This document shows positions 874 to 50,202 of a DNA stretch of 64,000 bases, piece by piece (the stretch's first letter is position 1; the number at the start of each line of letters is the position of its first letter). The notes beneath the pieces are model-generated. The model did not search any database, was not told the DNA's origin, and saw nothing but the letters and a program-made list of their open reading frames with translations. Source of the DNA: the human T2T-CHM13v2.0 reference genome, Homo sapiens; NCBI RefSeq assembly GCF_009914755.1, contig NC_060947.1; one strand, 5' to 3'. The translations under genes and the position numbers were made by a program.

Positions 874-986
874 TTTTAACAAAACAGAAATGTGTAAAAA
901 TTTGTGTAAAATCTTACGATCGAGACCAAATGGACAAGCTGGCTTTTTTTGAAGAAAGTAATACGACTGAATTACTAGCATCATTG
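874..986 (+). pseudogene. TM9SF5P: TM9SF pseudo-exon (TM9SF2 exon-4 equivalent, luminal domain)
   Basis: Acceptor tttttcttaacAG (872-873), donor GTaggt (987-992). Reads [36 protein letters not shown] versus TM9SF2 FNKKETCKLVCTKTY...KLEFLKKSMLLNYQHHW. Needs two frameshifts; TAG at 976-978. Confidence 0.85.
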
Positions 987-3617
987 GTAGGTTTGGCATC
1001 TGAAATAACATGACTTGGCTGGGTGAGGTGGCGTGCCACCTCAGCACTTTGGGAGGCCAAGGTGGACAGATTGCTTGAGCTCAGGAGTTTGATACCAGCC
1101 TGGCCAGCGTGGCGAAAACCCATCTCTACTAAAAATACAAAAATTAGCCGAGCATGATGGCAGGCACCTGTAATCCCAGCTACTTGGGAAGCTGAGGCAC
1201 ATGAGAATTGCTTGAACCTGGGAGGCGGAGGTTGCAGTGAGCCGAGATTGCACCACTGCACTCCAGCCTGGGTGAAAGAGTGAGACGCTGTCTCAGAAAA
1301 AAAAAAAAAAATTAACATGACTCAATTAATTTTTCAATTCCTTTCAGAAGTTTTTTGTTTGTTTGTTTTGAGACAGGGTATTGTTCTGTGGCCCAGGCTG
1401 GAGCAAAGTGATGTAATCATAGCTCACTGCATCCTCAAACTCCTGGGCTCAATTGATCCTCTTAGCCTCCTGAGTAGCTAGGACTACAGGCATGTGCCAC
1501 CATGCCTGGTTAAGTTTTGATTTTCTTTTTTGTCTTTTTTTTTTTTTTTTCTTGAGACAGAGTCTAGCTCTGTTGCTCAGGCTGGAGTGCAGTGGCGTGA
1601 TCTAGCACACTCGAAATCTCCACCACCCAGGTTCAAACAATTCTCCTGCCTCAGCCTCCTGAGTAGCTGGGATTACAGGCACCCGCCACCACGCCCAGCT
1701 AATTTTTGTATTTTTAGTAGAGACGGGGTTTCACTGTGTTGCCCAGGCTGGTCTTGAACTCCTGACCTCGTAATCCGCCCGCCTCAGCCTTCCAAAGTGC
1801 TGGGATTACAAGTGTTAGCCACCGTGCCCAGCCTTTGTTTTTTCTTTTTTGCTGTCACCTTATTTTTTTTTTATTATTTTTATTTTCTTTTTGTAGAGAC
1901 AGGGTCTAGCTATGTTGCCCAGGCTGGTCTTGAACTCCTGGCCTCAAGCAGTGCTTCCACCTTGGACTCCCAAAGTGAGTCACCACACCCTGCCAAAAAA
2001 GTATTCTTTATTTTTTATATTTTATTTTATTATTATTTTTTGGATATAGGGTTTCTCTCTGTCACCCAGGCTAGCGTAAAGTGGCACCATCTTGGCTCAC
2101 TGCAACCACCACCTCCCGGGTTCAAGTGATTCTCGTGCCTCAGCCTTCTGAGTAGCTGGGATTATAGGTGTCTGCCACTACACCCGGCTAATTTTTGTAT
2201 TTTTTTTTTTAGTACAGATGGAGTTTTACCATGTTGGCCAGGCTGGTCTTGAACTCCTGGTCTCAAGTGATCCACCCGCCTCGGCCTCCCAAAGTGCTGG
2301 GATTACAGGCGTGAGCCACTGCACCTGGCAGTGTTTCTTATATTTCAGTCATTTCACATACCACCTTGGTAATTTTTGCTATATGTCAAGCACCTGTATT
2401 ATTATTTATCTACTTTAAAAAAATCCGTTATTTAAGGCCAGGTGCAGCGGCTCATGCCTGTAATCCCAGCACTTTGGGAGGCTGAGGCGGGTGGATCACT
2501 TGAGGCCAAGAATTTGAGACCAGCCTGGCCAGCATGGCAAAACTCTGTCTCTACTAAAAATACAAAAAAATGAGCCAGGCATGGTGGCACTCACCTGTAG
2601 TCCCAGCTACTTGGGAGGCTGAGGCAGGAGAATTGCTTGAACCTGGGAGGCAGAGGTTGCAGTGAGCCCAGATTGCACCACTGCACCCCAGCCTGGTCAA
2701 CAGAGGGAGACCCTTACTCAAAAAAAAAAAAAATCCATGCTGTATTTAGAAAGGAAACTATAATACCCTAATTATAGATTTACTCTACTACTTATCTTTT
2801 TTATTCATCTAATTTCAAGTAAATATGTAAAAGGTAAAATTGTTTTTCCATCTACTACCTAAAATCATCTTGTATATCTTCAGTGCTATGTATTTTTCAC
2901 AATGGGAAGCAGTGAGATAAAGAAGTAAAGAAAATGGGAAGAGAAGCAACAAACAACTGCTTAATTGATAGTTCTTTGAAAGCAAGGGTAAACTGGCAGA
3001 AGAAAGGAGTTAATGAACAGGAGAAATGTTCATTAATATGGTCTGTGTTTGAGACCATATATGAAAGTGGGTTCTTAGGGAACATTTAACGACGACATCT
3101 TTCAAGATCAAGTCTGGGAAGAAGAAAGGGACCAATAGGATGAAAAACCCCCAGTTGGCAGGAGTAGCAATAACTTTACCAACATTTGTAGGTTGTCAAC
3201 ATAAAATTACCAAGGTTAAGTAAAAGCTTAAATAAGGCCGGGTGCAGTGGCTCACGCCTGTAATCACAACTTTGGGAGGCCAGGGCAGGTGGATCACAAG
3301 GTCAGGAGTTCGAGATCATCCTGGCTAACATGGTGAAATCCTGTTTCTACTAAAATACAAAAAAAAAAAAAAAAAAAAAAAAATTAGCCGGGCGTGGTGG
3401 TGCATGCCTGTAGTACCAGCTACTCGGGAGGCTGAGGCACGGGAATCACTTGAACCCAGGAGGTGGAGGTTGCAGTAAGCCCAGACTGCGCCACTGCAGT
3501 CCAGGCGTGGCGACAGAGTGAGACTCTGTCTAAAAAAAAACAACAACAAAGCTTAAATAAAACCAGCAGCTACTTTTTGCTATTTCTTTTATATAGTGAT
3601 ACTCTTTCTTGTGAATT

Positions 3618-3912
3618 TCCTCTTCCTCTTCCTCCTCTCCTTCTCCTCCTCCTCCTCCCCCTCCTCCTTCTTCTTATTCTTCCTCTTCCTCCTCTTCCTC
3701 TTCCTCCTCTTCCTCTTCTTCCTCTTCCTCCTCTTCCTCTTCTTCCTCTTCCCCTTCCTCTTCTCCTTCTCCTCCTCCTCCTTCTCCTCTTCCTCCTTAT
3801 TCTTCCTCTTCCTCTTCTTCCTCTTCCTCCTCTTCCTCCTCTACCTCCTCTACCTCTTCTTCCTCTTCCCCCTCCTCTTCTCCTTCTCCTCCTCCTCCTT
3901 CTTCTTCTTTCT
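3618..3912. repeat. (CCT/CTT)n polypyrimidine low-complexity tract at the tail end of a minus-strand Alu
   Basis: About 295 bp of almost pure C/T, abutting the Alu at 3913-4181; explains ORFs 3463..4008 and 3596..3946. Confidence 0.95.
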
Positions 3913-4644
3913 CACTTTGTCACCCAGGCTGAGTGCAGTGGCATGATCACGGCTCACTGCAACCTCGACCTCCAGGGCTCAAGCCATCCTCCTTCCTCAG
4001 CCTCCTGAGTAGCTGGGACTACAGGCGTGTGCCACCACGTCAGGCTAATCTTTGTAGTTTTTGTAGAGATAGGGTTTTGCCATGTTGCCCAGGTTGGTCT
4101 CGAACTCCTGGACTCAAGTGATCTGCCCGCCTCAGCCTCCCAAAGTGCTGGGATTACAGGTGTGCACCACTGCTCCCAGCCTATTTTTATTTTAAAGATA
4201 TTTATTTTAGATAGATACTGATGTCCTCCTCCCTTCACCCTGACACATAGGCTCCTTTTCGTTGAAAAATGAAAGTTTCAGGCAAGTTTCAGAAAAGTTT
4301 ATAGGCTGGGCATGGTGGCTCATGCCAGCACTTTGTGAGGCCAAGGTGGGCGGATCGCCTGAGGTCAGGGGTTCAAGACCAGCCTGGCCAACATGGCGAA
4401 ACCGATCTCTACTAAAAATACAAAAAAATTAGCCAGGCGTAGTGTTGGGCGCCTGTAATCCCAGCTATTCGGGAGGTTGAGGCAGGAGAATCACTTGAAT
4501 CTGGGAGGTGGAAGTTGCAGTGAGCTGAGATTGCTCCACTGCACTCCAGCCTGGGCGACAGAGCAAGAATCCATCTCAAAAAAAAAAAAAAATAATAAGA
4601 AGTTGTTTATAGTGCCATTGATCATATCAGTGGGAATAATTATA

Positions 4645-4812
4645 CCAATTATTTTCAAAGTGTGGTCTGGGGGCCTCTGAGAACTTTTCAGGGAGTCTGC
4701 AAGGTCCAAACTATTTTCATAGTAGTACTAAGCTGTTACTTGCCTTCTTCACTCTCATTCTTTCATGAGTGTACGGTGGAATTTTCCAGAGGCTACATGA
4801 AGTGAGATGATG
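4645..4812 (+). mobile_element. hAT-Charlie (Charlie1-like) terminal fragment
   Basis: tcaaagtgtggtctggggg...aaactattttcatagtagtactaag...ttttccagaggctacatga resembles the recalled Charlie1 end; it stops abruptly at an Alu right arm. Confidence 0.55.
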
Positions 4813-48804: not shown

Positions 48805-49818
48805 ATGAGTACACTCAGATATGTCTTAAACATTCATAGTAAGCTGCCGGCATATGTTAAACTTTGAGTCCTTTGTACAAAGGGACTTGGAAAATTATAC
48901 CCTAAAGTTAATGGAAATCTGTGTTTTATAATGTTTACATTTCTGTCTTCTCAAATTAAGGATATTAGTCTAAGTATCTTCCTATATCAAGCACCTTCCA
49001 TAGCTTCTTTAGTTCTGAATAGTTTATTGTAAACTCCAATATGTATATTCCTTGCTTTGCAAAATAAACGCATTCTTAAAATCAGTACATGAGTAGAATC
49101 ATATTTTAAGTGGGCTAAGGGAGTTCATGATTTGAAAGCTAACATTTTGAAATGCTACAGCAAGCCTAAGTGCTGGTCTTTAAGTGTATAAATGGAATGG
49201 CATCGGTAGTGGGCTCACAACAGCTGATGAACCCTAGTGCCTTCATTTATAAACTAAAAATGGAGCTTGTCAGTTTTTGATAGCCAGAGTAGTGATTTTC
49301 GTAAACAAAGCTGCTGTAAAAAATGGCTCATTAGATGTTTCAGATGTCAATGATAATTTCAAAAATCAGCTTTTAGGGTTATATTTTCCTGAGACCAATT
49401 CTCACTTTGATTTTTTTTTCATTCCTGAGCTTGAATAAAAGGAAACAGAAGGAAATTTCTTTGGGAAAAAAAGAAGTGCTGTTTTTGGAGTGACTACTGA
49501 AGTGGGAAAGGGGGAGATATTTTGTGTAATTTTGATTTAGACAGTGAAATTAAGGCTAATTCAACTTATGAAAACTTACTTCCACTTACCTTGAATGGAA
49601 AATCAGACTTTTTCATTAAGAAAAAGTGTCAAGTACTTAGCCAAGCAAATAACATTTGCTTATAGCATCCCTTGCTTGTAGTACTCCCATTAGATAATTT
49701 ACTTGTGTGCCGTTTCATATAATGTCTTAATAAGGTTGTGCTTAATTTCTTATAAAGTCCTATGTACTTTTGAGACTATTATTGTTGCTGGTTTTCTATT
49801 TCATTTTTGTGCCTTTAG

Positions 49819-49938
49819 GTCTGGCCTGCCTTGGTTTTCCTTCTCCTGCCAATGGAGGAGCTTTAATGACCTGTGCCATTGTGTTATGGGTCCTTCTGGG
49901 AACCCCTGCCAGATATGTGTCTGCTATAATGTATAAGA
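49819..49938 (+). pseudogene. TM9SF5P: TM9SF pseudo-exon (exon-11 equivalent, TM3), 120 bp
   Basis: AG at 49817-18, GTaagc at 49939. LACLGFPSPANGGALMTCAIVLWVLLGTPARYVSAIMYK versus FACLGFLSPANRGALMTCAVVLWVLLGTPAGYVAARFYK. Contained in ORF 49770..49988. Confidence 0.96.
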
Positions 49939-50144
49939 GTAAGCATTACAACTGTTATTATTCCAGGAAGTTGTTGCGTGAAATGTAGAAATTAAAAGGC
50001 TGTGAAGTAAAAAATAAAAAAAATTGCATGGGGGAATTTTAGCCGACTTATGAAAATTTAATTGTGCCTTGATTACTCTAAAGTATTTGTAAAGTTGACT
50101 AAATCAAGTTGCTAAAGTAACTATTCAGTTTTTTACTTCCTTAG

Positions 50145-50202
50145 CATTTAGAGGTGCTAAGTGGAAGACAAATGCCTTGCTGACAGCACTATTATGTCCG
50201 GG
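50145..50202 (+). pseudogene. TM9SF5P: TM9SF pseudo-exon (exon-12 equivalent), 58 bp
   Basis: AG at 50143-44, GTtagt at 50203. FRGAKWKTNALLTALLCPG versus FGGEKWKTNVLLTSFLCPG. Confidence 0.93.

What the first reader, a model, noticed from the sequence alone, without database searches (positions are those of the whole stretch)
874..50202. Hidden fossil of a fifth TM9SF gene: six exons buried in 50 kb of repeats
Seen: six short + strand segments with TM9SF2-like peptides in the right order and with splice-site context. The ORF track captures only one of them in frame. Known: humans have four functional TM9SF genes, and as I recall an X-linked fifth paralogue is coding in mouse (Tm9sf5/Gm364, testis) but a pseudogene in human. 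Inference: introns plus many conservative substitutions relative to TM9SF2 point to an old duplicate that evolved under selection and was later lost, i.e. a unitary gene loss rather than a retrocopy.
Basis: partly seen in the sequence, partly recalled or inferred. Interest (0 to 1): 0.85.

Follow-up and report, generated by a model that had tools for sequence, protein, structure and literature searches.

The report
TM9SF5P: known dead gene, under-annotated
This part of the human X chromosome holds the decayed, intron-containing remains of TM9SF5, a membrane-protein gene that other mammals still appear to keep intact; it is already catalogued as a pseudogene, but the catalogue entry covers only half of the exons that can still be recognised.

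Summary
Six + strand segments at 874-986, 45619-45698, 47864-47969, 48672-48804, 49819-49938 and 50145-50202 are exons 4 and 8-12 of a TM9SF2-type gene. They lie in the right order, and 9 of their 12 splice sites are intact.

With flanking DNA, 12 of the 17 TM9SF2-type exons are found over 111.6 kb, from -3665 to 107928. Exons 2, 3, 5, 6 and 7 cannot be detected.

Lesions: 4 TAG stops, 4 frameshifts and 3 destroyed splice sites.

Exon DNA is 70.8% identical to TM9SF2, and intron flanks align no better than shuffled sequence. That rules out a retrocopy or a recent duplicate.

In a careful tree the read-through protein sits with tarsier inside a placental "TM9SF2-like" clade (100/100). This clade is nested among marsupial, sauropsid and amphibian copies and is separate from true TM9SF2.

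So this is the unitary pseudogene TM9SF5P, which is already named. The only additions are a lesion inventory and an annotation point. The RefSeq span (48672..87731) holds exons 10-15 and omits exons 1, 4, 8, 9, 16 and 17.

Synteny, the mouse orthologue and the date of loss could not be tested here.

The parts
874..986 (+). Exon 4. It has frameshifting indels of -5, -2 and +1, an in-frame -9 deletion and one TAG stop. Acceptor AG and donor GT are kept. It lies outside the RefSeq span.
   Evidence: (13.0 bits against 9.5 for the control)
45619..45698 (+). Exon 8, 80 nt as in TM9SF2. It has one TAG stop and both splice sites are kept. It lies outside the RefSeq span.
   Evidence: (113-123 against at most 49)
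47864..47969 (+). Exon 9. It has an in-frame 3-nt deletion, the acceptor is kept, and the donor is GT>AT. It lies outside the RefSeq span.
   Evidence: (44.1 bits)
48672..48804 (+). Exon 10, 133 nt as in TM9SF2. The reading frame is open, the acceptor is AG>GG and the donor is GT>AT. The RefSeq span starts at its first base.
   Evidence: (66.1 bits)
49819..49938 (+). Exon 11, 120 nt as in TM9SF2. It is open and both splice sites are kept.
   Evidence: (69.2 bits)
50145..50202 (+). Exon 12, 58 nt as in TM9SF2. It is open and both splice sites are kept (the donor is GTTAGT).
   Evidence: (28.5 bits)
1..873 (+). The in-window end of the interval between exon 1 and exon 4, which has no detectable exon 2 or 3. 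Exon 1 itself lies OUTSIDE the window at -3665..-3476. Its ATG is kept, it has one +1 frameshift, its donor GT is kept, and it sits in a CpG-island-like stretch at -4200..-3400.
   Evidence: exon 1: (29.8 and 29.2 bits); absence of exons 2 and 3:
987..45618 (+). A 44.6-kb interval between exons 4 and 8, where exons 5, 6 and 7 should lie but are undetectable. The same interval is 11.1 kb in TM9SF2. It holds the processed pseudogene RPL22P23 (hub table).
   Evidence: profile and per-exon Smith-Waterman give nothing above the minus-strand control; interval sizes
50203..64000 (+). The in-window start of the 30.0-kb intron between exons 12 and 13. The remaining exons lie OUTSIDE the window. E13 is at 80243-80402 (open). 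E14 is at 81601-81752 (TAG stop). E15 is at 84046-84157 (TAG stop). E16 is at 88776-88944 (3-nt in-frame deletion, beyond the RefSeq end at 87731). E17 is at 107861-107928 (open, TAA stop kept).
   Evidence: (E17: 90-98 against at most 37)

Best explanation
The segments are exons 4 and 8-12 of TM9SF5P. This is the non-processed, unitary pseudogene of TM9SF5, a nine-pass EMP70-family membrane protein gene paralogous to TM9SF2.

Shown here:
- The gene kept the 17-exon architecture of TM9SF2.
- Twelve exons remain, spread over 111.6 kb of Xq from a CpG-island-like 5' end to a preserved stop codon.
- The copy cannot encode the protein. It has 4 TAG stops (exons 4, 8, 14, 15), 4 frameshifts (one in exon 1, three in exon 4) and 3 ruined splice sites (exon 9 donor, exon 10 acceptor and donor). 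Exons 2, 3, 5, 6 and 7, which encode much of the lumenal N-terminal domain, are undetectable.

Shown by tree:
- The paralogue is at least as old as tetrapods.
- Many mammals have it as a predicted full-length protein, including tarsier, galago and loris.

Inferred:
- The pair TM9SF2/TM9SF5 arose with the chromosome 13/X paralogy of early vertebrates.
- The human copy was inactivated tens of millions of years ago, probably on the anthropoid stem, and has drifted neutrally since. It does nothing as a protein today.
For: Family:
- Eight EMP70 (PF02990) matches lie in order on chrX at E<=10, five of them at E<=0.001.

Architecture:
- Exon lengths equal those of TM9SF2 in 8 of 12 exons, and 19 of 22 splice sites are canonical.
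- Exons 10-17 join into 972 nt in one frame, and exons 8-9 into 186 nt.

Lesions were read directly from the sequence.

Missing exons:
- The profile of 13 orthologues and per-exon Smith-Waterman over 152 kb give plus-strand bests of 34-44 for exons 2, 3, 5, 6 and 7. The minus-strand control gives 32-50.

Not TM9SF2-derived recently:
- Exon DNA identity is 70.8%, and 7 of 7 intron flanks align no better than shuffles.

Orthology:
- Identity is 76.9% (337/438) to the tarsier protein and 68.1% (320/470) to TM9SF2.
- Careful ML tree support: human+tarsier 81/70, primates 89/92, placental clade 100/100, with marsupials 95/92, with sauropsids 95/95, with amphibians 97/92. The TM9SF2 clade is separate at 100/100.

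Relaxed constraint:
- The human sequence has 11 changes at 143 columns that are invariant in all other rows, mostly radical (D>V, L>P, R>G, G>R, C>Y). Rhino, dog and turtle have 0, and 0-4 is typical for most mammals.

No monkey or ape protein:
- There is none among 72 relatives of exon 10 (best 78%, tarsier) or among the 120 best relatives of the tarsier protein.

Paralogon hint:
- FGF-domain exons lie 1.7 Mb distal on X and 2.2 Mb distal of TM9SF2 on chr13.

Literature:
- Mouse Gm364 is an EMP70-domain multi-pass protein expressed in testis, neurons and placenta, and its knockout reduces female fertility (PMC8816931: abstract and introduction passages).
- Gm364 has no human orthologue symbol (bioRxiv 10.1101/2021.06.08.447603, passage).
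- The hub's RefSeq table already names TM9SF5P here.
Against: - Synteny of the non-human proteins with Xq26 was not tested, because no genomic context was available.
- No rodent orthologue appeared among the best 120 hits of the hare query. The mouse link therefore rests on papers and on the recalled synonymy Gm364 = Tm9sf5. No paper holds both names.
- Protein-level decay does not single out the human copy. The hare has 17/160 changes at invariant columns and the tree shrew 7/139, and their terminal branches (0.51 and 0.47) are longer than the human one (0.33). The hare changes are mostly conservative.
- Exons 8-17 (1158 nt) carry no frameshift at all, which is on the low side for a very old pseudogene.
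- All three non-simian primate models are imperfect. The tarsier lacks exon 14, the loris lacks part of exons 4-5, and the galago has an odd C-terminus. Decay may therefore have started earlier in primates, or these may be annotation artefacts.
- Grouping with fish tm9sf5 is weak (80/45), so an age beyond tetrapods is not shown.
Confidence: 0.95

Rival explanations
1. It is a processed retrocopy of TM9SF2, or of another TM9SF mRNA, later broken up by repeat insertions.
For: The exons are short and are separated by DNA of which a good share is repeats (hub table: 39 in 100 masked). Processed pseudogenes (RPL22P23, SRRM1P3) lie in the same region.
Against: Every break between coding segments falls exactly at a TM9SF2 intron position, with AG/GT dinucleotides at 19 of 22 sites and polypyrimidine tracts. 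Exon DNA identity to TM9SF2 is only 70.8%. The tree places the sequence with intron-bearing orthologues of other species.
Confidence: 0.005
2. It is a recent segmental duplicate of TM9SF2 that decayed on the X chromosome.
For: TM9SF2 is the closest functional human gene. Exon lengths are identical in 8 of 12 exons.
Against: Exon identity is 1019/1440 = 70.8%, and 200-nt intron flanks match no better than shuffled sequence in 7 of 7 tests. The human sequence is closer to tarsier, dog, rhino and even turtle 'TM9SF2-like' proteins (72-77%) than to TM9SF2 (68.1%). The TM9SF2 clade is separate with 100/100 support.
Confidence: 0.005
3. The locus is still a protein-coding gene in humans, through exon skipping or an alternative start, or it is a pseudogene only in this assembly (a polymorphic loss).
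For: Exons 10-13, 16 and 17 are open. Exons 8-17 keep one frame. The ATG, the stop codon and a CpG-island-like 5' end persist.
Against: The stops lie in exons 8 (80 nt), 14 (152 nt) and 15 (112 nt). None of these lengths is a multiple of three, so skipping them shifts the frame. Five exons are absent. Exon 10 has lost both splice sites. Eleven independent lesions cannot be a single segregating allele. Eleven radical changes fall at invariant columns. RefSeq calls it a pseudogene (hub table).
Confidence: 0.02
4. It is the same unitary pseudogene, but the inactivation is recent (hominoid-specific or human-specific) rather than on the anthropoid stem.
For: There are no frameshifts in 1158 nt of exons 8-17. 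The human terminal branch (0.33) is shorter than those of hare and tree shrew, whose models are full length. Absence of monkey proteins from a protein database is only negative evidence.
Against: Four nonsense mutations, four frameshifts, three splice-site losses and five exons eroded or deleted in a 1.46-kb coding remnant imply, by rough inference, about 0.06 substitutions per site of neutral time with a wide Poisson error. That is tens of millions of years. No ape or monkey protein closer than 78% to exon 10 exists among 5.8 billion sequences.
Confidence: 0.1

Closest known systems
Human TM9SF2 (chr13; EMP70/nonaspanin family)
   Same: The 17-exon layout is the same, with identical lengths for 8 of the 12 recognisable exons and the same intron positions and phases. 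The EMP70 domain is shared. The conceptual protein is 68.1% identical.
   Different: TM9SF2 is intact and spans 61 kb. The X copy spans 111.6 kb, lacks 5 exons and carries 11 disabling lesions. It belongs to a different, tetrapod-wide clade.
Placental 'transmembrane 9 superfamily member 2-like' proteins (tarsier, galago, loris, rhino, horse, dog, cat, bat, deer, hare), taken here as TM9SF5 orthologues
   Same: They share a clade with 100/100 support, and the best identity is 76.9% to tarsier. The N-terminus MSTRGFRVGTN is shared, and so is the alternative read-through tail after exon 16.
   Different: Those are predicted open reading frames of 627-672 aa, whereas the human one is broken. Their chromosomal position was not checked.
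Mouse Gm364 (recalled to be the same gene as Tm9sf5)
   Same: It is an EMP70-domain multi-pass membrane protein (PMC8816931). It is reported to lack a human orthologue symbol. It has germline expression as a leptotene marker (PMC8416306), and Tm9sf5 is listed as spermatogenesis-related (PMC10305742).
   Different: It is functional in mouse, where the knockout lowers female fertility. No mouse sequence was retrieved here, so orthology to this locus is not tested.
Unitary pseudogenes of the human lineage, as a class (recalled examples such as GULOP)
   Same: It is a single-copy, intron-containing relic at what should be the ancestral locus, with functional orthologues elsewhere and no functional duplicate of the same orthology group in the genome (one search shows no other TM9SF5-like locus).
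   Different: None in kind.

Membership tests
TM9SF / EMP70 (Pfam PF02990) | Significant match to the EMP70 profile | tested here: met
   Five chrX matches at E from 7.2e-11 to 7.7e-5, each over the 27-bit cut-off, and eight in collinear order at E<=10
TM9SF / EMP70 (Pfam PF02990) | Complete domain: lumenal N-terminal part plus nine-helix C-terminal part in one reading frame | tested here: not met
   Exons 2, 3, 5, 6 and 7 are undetectable. There are 4 stops and 4 frameshifts. It is a relic of a member and does not encode a functional protein.
TM9SF5 orthology group (vertebrate 'TM9SF2-like') | Groups with TM9SF5-type and not TM9SF2-type proteins in a tree | tested here: met
   Placental clade 100/100, tetrapod clade 97/92, TM9SF2 separate at 100/100. 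The quick tree of 45 rows agrees.
TM9SF5 orthology group (vertebrate 'TM9SF2-like') | Conserved synteny (between RBMX and GPR101 on the X in other mammals) | not testable with these tools
   The protein databases give no genomic context, and only the human genome is held.
Unitary (non-processed) pseudogene | Introns retained at parental positions | tested here: met
   Eleven intervals between the recognised exons; 19 of 22 splice sites canonical; 8 of 12 exon lengths identical to TM9SF2
Unitary (non-processed) pseudogene | Disabling mutations | tested here: met
   4 TAG stops, 4 frameshifts, 3 splice-site losses, 5 missing exons
Unitary (non-processed) pseudogene | Intact orthologues in other species and no intact copy of the same orthology group in this genome | tested here: inconclusive
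   Predicted full-length proteins exist in at least 13 placentals, but they are gene models, not verified proteins. The genome-wide EMP70 scan finds only TM9SF1-4 and this locus above threshold.
Processed pseudogene (retrocopy) | Intronless, contiguous cDNA-like copy | tested here: not met
   The exons are spread over 111.6 kb with splice signals.

The most novel reading that the evidence does not exclude
TM9SF5 was lost once, on the stem of anthropoid primates. On this reading all monkeys and apes lack a germline-expressed X-linked nonaspanin whose mouse counterpart (Gm364) is needed for normal oocyte quality. The relic's 5' CpG-island-like promoter and a conserved alternative 3' end (the read-through tail after exon 16) have survived because the locus is still transcribed as a non-coding RNA.
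Probability: 0.25. Interest if true: 0.35.

Novelty: already known. Interest (0 to 1): 0.2.

Why it matters
The scientific weight is modest.

Three practical points follow:
- The RefSeq span contains only 6 of the 12 recognisable exons. The relic is about 112 kb long, not 39 kb, so variant or expression signals upstream (exons 1, 4, 8, 9) and downstream (exons 16, 17, close to GPR101) belong to the same dead gene.
- Mouse work on Gm364 in fertility has no direct human counterpart, because the human gene is broken in many places.
- The placental TM9SF5 lineage evolves much faster than TM9SF2 and than its non-placental orthologues. This is a small but clean example of an old vertebrate paralogue that became dispensable in one lineage.

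Tried and rejected
I used the genome-wide family scan instead.
- The raw tblastn of TM9SF2-locus ORFs was swamped by Alu-type repeats. I dropped queries with three or more hits, and subject stretches covered by such queries, before reading the rest.
- The 'open frame 337 aa' reported by the scan around 47856-48806 is not an ORF. The ORF listing finds only a 61-aa frame around exon 10.
- Exons 2, 3, 5, 6 and 7 were searched by profile and by per-exon Smith-Waterman with four orthologues over 152 kb. 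Nothing rose above the minus-strand control.
- Exon 17 was not within 5 kb of exon 16. It was found 18.9 kb downstream after fetching more DNA.
- Automatic concatenation of tblastn hits gave rows contaminated by intron read-through. I replaced them with exon coordinates read by eye.
- The library search with a TM9SF4 exon returned mostly fragments. Four long, unnamed representatives served as outgroups. Three were very long branches and one fell inside the TM9SF2 clade, so the careful tree kept only one.
- The hare query did not bring up any rodent orthologue among its best 120 hits.
- Literature searches: 'TM9SF5P' gave 0 papers, 'Gm364' with 'Tm9sf5' gave 0, and 'Gm364' with 'pseudogene' or 'X-linked' gave nothing relevant.
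- Earlier findings of this scan were not open to the session.
- I did not run structure or complex prediction, because they would not bear on the question.

Full report
**Observation.** The window is human chrX (T2T) 135222001-135286000.

A genome-wide six-frame scan with Pfam EMP70 (PF02990) found the four known TM9SF genes on contigs 14, 13, 10 and 20. It also found a collinear series on chrX. Inside the window the hits were 48672-48806 (E 7.2e-11) and 49794-49943 (7.7e-5). At looser thresholds there were also 47856-47963 (0.02) and 45490-45699 (0.05). Four more lay downstream of the window.

I then took all stop-to-stop ORFs of the human TM9SF2 locus and ran tblastn against the window.

| Window position | E-value |
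|---|---|
| 48672-48809 | 3e-20 |
| 49800-49943 | 2e-17 |
| 47856-47975 | 7e-13 |
| 45619-45699 | 2e-10 |
| 50132-50203 | 3e-9 |
| 872-907 and 946-987 | 0.024 each |

The weakest segment, exon 4, was checked further. A profile of 13 placental orthologues gives it 13.0 bits, against 9.5 for the best minus-strand ORF. Smith-Waterman gives 69-75 and 59-69 for its two frames, against 39-47 for the minus strand. Exon 8 scores 113-123, against at most 49.

**Anatomy.** Aligning a TM9SF2 protein (P0153) to the chr13 locus shows 17 coding exons.

I fetched 40 kb upstream and 48 kb downstream of the window and used three orthologous proteins as queries. This recovers 12 of the 17 exons on chrX:

| Exon | Window coordinates |
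|---|---|
| E1 | -3665..-3476 |
| E4 | 874-986 |
| E8 | 45619-45698 |
| E9 | 47864-47969 |
| E10 | 48672-48804 |
| E11 | 49819-49938 |
| E12 | 50145-50202 |
| E13 | 80243-80402 |
| E14 | 81601-81752 |
| E15 | 84046-84157 |
| E16 | 88776-88944 |
| E17 | 107861-107928 |

E17 was found only after extending the search. It scores 90-98, against at most 37 for the control.

The span is 111,594 bp, against 61,152 bp for TM9SF2, and 1461 nt of coding remnant is recognisable.

Eight exons have exactly the TM9SF2 length (E8, E10-E15, E17), and 19 of 22 splice sites are canonical. Exons 2, 3, 5, 6 and 7 are well conserved among orthologues. In the human DNA they give no signal above the minus-strand control in 152 kb. 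They are either deleted or eroded beyond recognition.

The RefSeq span given by the hub (48672..87731) begins at the first base of E10 and ends before E16. It therefore contains E10-E15 only.

**Lesions**:

| Exon | Lesions |
|---|---|
| E1 | +1 frameshift |
| E4 | -5, -2 and +1 frameshifts, a 9-nt in-frame deletion, one TAG |
| E8 | one TAG |
| E9 | 3-nt in-frame deletion, donor GT>AT |
| E10 | acceptor AG>GG, donor GT>AT |
| E14 | one TAG |
| E15 | one TAG |
| E16 | 3-nt in-frame deletion |

E11, E12, E13 and E17 are clean. The ATG and the terminal stop are in place. E10-E17 join into 972 nt in a single frame, and E8-E9 into 186 nt. All four frameshifts therefore sit in E1 and E4.

**What it is not.** Exon DNA is 70.8% identical to TM9SF2 (1019/1440). 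The 200-nt intron flanks match no better than shuffled sequence in 7 of 7 tests. It is therefore not a recent duplicate. Intron positions are conserved, so it is not a retrocopy.

**Orthology and age.** The exon 10 peptide retrieves 72 vertebrate EMP70 proteins, mostly named 'TM9SF2-like'. The best is tarsier at 78%, and no monkey or ape protein is among them.

The tarsier protein retrieves full-length models in rhino, horse, dog, panda, cats, deer, buffalo, bat, hare, galago and loris. It also retrieves sauropsid, amphibian, shark and fish proteins.

The human read-through protein has X at every break. It is 76.9% identical to tarsier (337/438) and 68.1% to TM9SF2 (320/470).

A careful ML tree (31 rows, 670 columns, LG+C20) gives this support:

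| Grouping | Support |
|---|---|
| human + tarsier | 81/70 |
| primates | 89/92 |
| placental clade | 100/100 |
| plus marsupials | 95/92 |
| plus sauropsids | 95/95 |
| plus amphibians | 97/92 |
| plus fish 'tm9sf5' | 80/45 (weak) |
| TM9SF2 of mammals and birds, separate | 100/100 |

A quick 45-row tree agrees. The paralogue is therefore at least tetrapod-old.

FGF-domain exons lie 1.7 Mb distal of this locus on X and 2.2 Mb distal of TM9SF2 on chr13. From recall these are FGF13 and FGF14, members of the X/13 paralogy block. This fits an origin in the early vertebrate genome duplications, but that origin is an inference.

**Constraint.** At columns invariant in all other rows, the human sequence has 11 changes out of 143, largely radical. 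Rhino, dog and turtle have 0. Horse, deer and TM9SF2 have 1. Cat has 4.

The signal is not exclusive to human. The hare has 17/160, mostly conservative, and the tree shrew has 7/139. Five of the tarsier's 8 come from a mis-modelled exon 14. The human terminal branch (0.33) is longer than the tarsier's (0.12) but shorter than those of hare (0.51) and tree shrew (0.47).

Placental TM9SF5 as a whole sits on a long stem (0.23) and evolves much faster than TM9SF2.

**Timing (inference only).** Four nonsense mutations in 1.46 kb correspond roughly to 0.06 neutral substitutions per site, with a wide Poisson error. Together with the absence of any simian protein, this points to a loss tens of millions of years ago, plausibly on the anthropoid stem. 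This needs primate genome alignments, which are not available here.

**Known or new.** The locus is named TM9SF5P in RefSeq (hub table).

The paper library holds no article with 'TM9SF5P' and four that merely list Tm9sf5/tm9sf5.

Mouse Gm364 is described as an EMP70-domain multi-pass protein expressed in testis, neurons and placenta, and its knockout impairs female fertility. I read the abstract and introduction passages of PMC8816931. Gm364 is listed as lacking a human orthologue symbol (bioRxiv 10.1101/2021.06.08.447603, one passage). It is also listed as a male leptotene marker (PMC8416306, one passage).

That Gm364 is Tm9sf5 and X-linked is recalled. No paper holds both names.

**Verdict.** This is a correct reading of an already catalogued unitary pseudogene. 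The additions are a full exon and lesion map, and the point that the reference annotation covers only half of the recognisable exons.

Noticed in passing
window -4200..-3400 (outside the window, around exon 1): A CpG-island-like stretch lies at the pseudogene's 5' end. GC is 0.62-0.66 and CpG o/e is 0.74-0.92, against 0.43 and 0.32 for the 152-kb region. A CpG island surviving at a long-dead gene suggests the promoter is still unmethylated in the germline.
   Followed up: partly
window 88945-89021 (outside the window, just after exon 16): Reading through the exon 16 donor gives a 25-residue tail ending in a stop. It closely matches the C-terminal tails of the bat (P0002) and cat (P0080) isoforms, with 18 of 25 residues identical to cat by eye. 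This looks like a conserved alternative C-terminus of placental TM9SF5 that replaces the last exon.
   Followed up: partly
proteins P0052 (tarsier), P0084 (loris), P0078 (galago): All three non-simian primate models are imperfect. The tarsier lacks exon 14 and has 9 unrelated residues in its place. The loris lacks part of exons 4-5. The galago lacks the N-terminus and has an unrelated C-terminus. Either these are annotation or assembly artefacts, or decay began earlier in primates.
   Followed up: partly
proteins P0087 (hare), P0003 (tree shrew); The hare and tree-shrew orthologues sit on very long branches (0.51, 0.47) and have many changes at otherwise invariant columns. No rodent orthologue appeared among the 120 best hits of the hare query. 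TM9SF5 may be evolving unusually fast throughout Euarchontoglires.
   Followed up: partly
G000:C23:136945967-137013585 and G000:C13:100942629-100942811; also C23:75.89 Mb and C13:20.87-20.90 Mb: FGF-domain exons flank both TM9SF5P (1.7 Mb away) and TM9SF2 (2.2 Mb away), and a second FGF pair lies elsewhere on X and chr13. This is consistent with an X/13 paralogy block.
   Followed up: partly
window 61233-61307 (+): There is a 25-28-residue similarity in three frames (E 1e-10 to 9e-6) to DNA about 9 kb upstream of TM9SF2 exon 1 (chr13 98703062-98703161). It is unrelated to the coding exons and is probably a shared interspersed repeat that escaped my repeat filter.
   Followed up: no
window 34501-34883 (-) and 70031-72487 (-), from the hub table: Two processed pseudogenes (RPL22P23, SRRM1P3) sit inside the two largest 'introns' of the relic, E4-E8 (44.6 kb) and E12-E13 (30.0 kb). 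They contribute to its expansion relative to TM9SF2.
   Followed up: no
proteins P0167 and P0164 (Takifugu) and other fish rows: Near-identical fish proteins are named 'member 5' in one species and 'member 2' in another. In the tree both labels fall in a single fish clade, so public naming of the fish genes is inconsistent.
   Followed up: no
G000:C8:30350245-30350478, C2:155752959-155753105, C6:114948578-114948691, C20:48984838-48985020: There are weak EMP70-like matches (E 0.76-8.6) outside the five TM9SF loci. They may be chance or old processed fragments.
   Followed up: no
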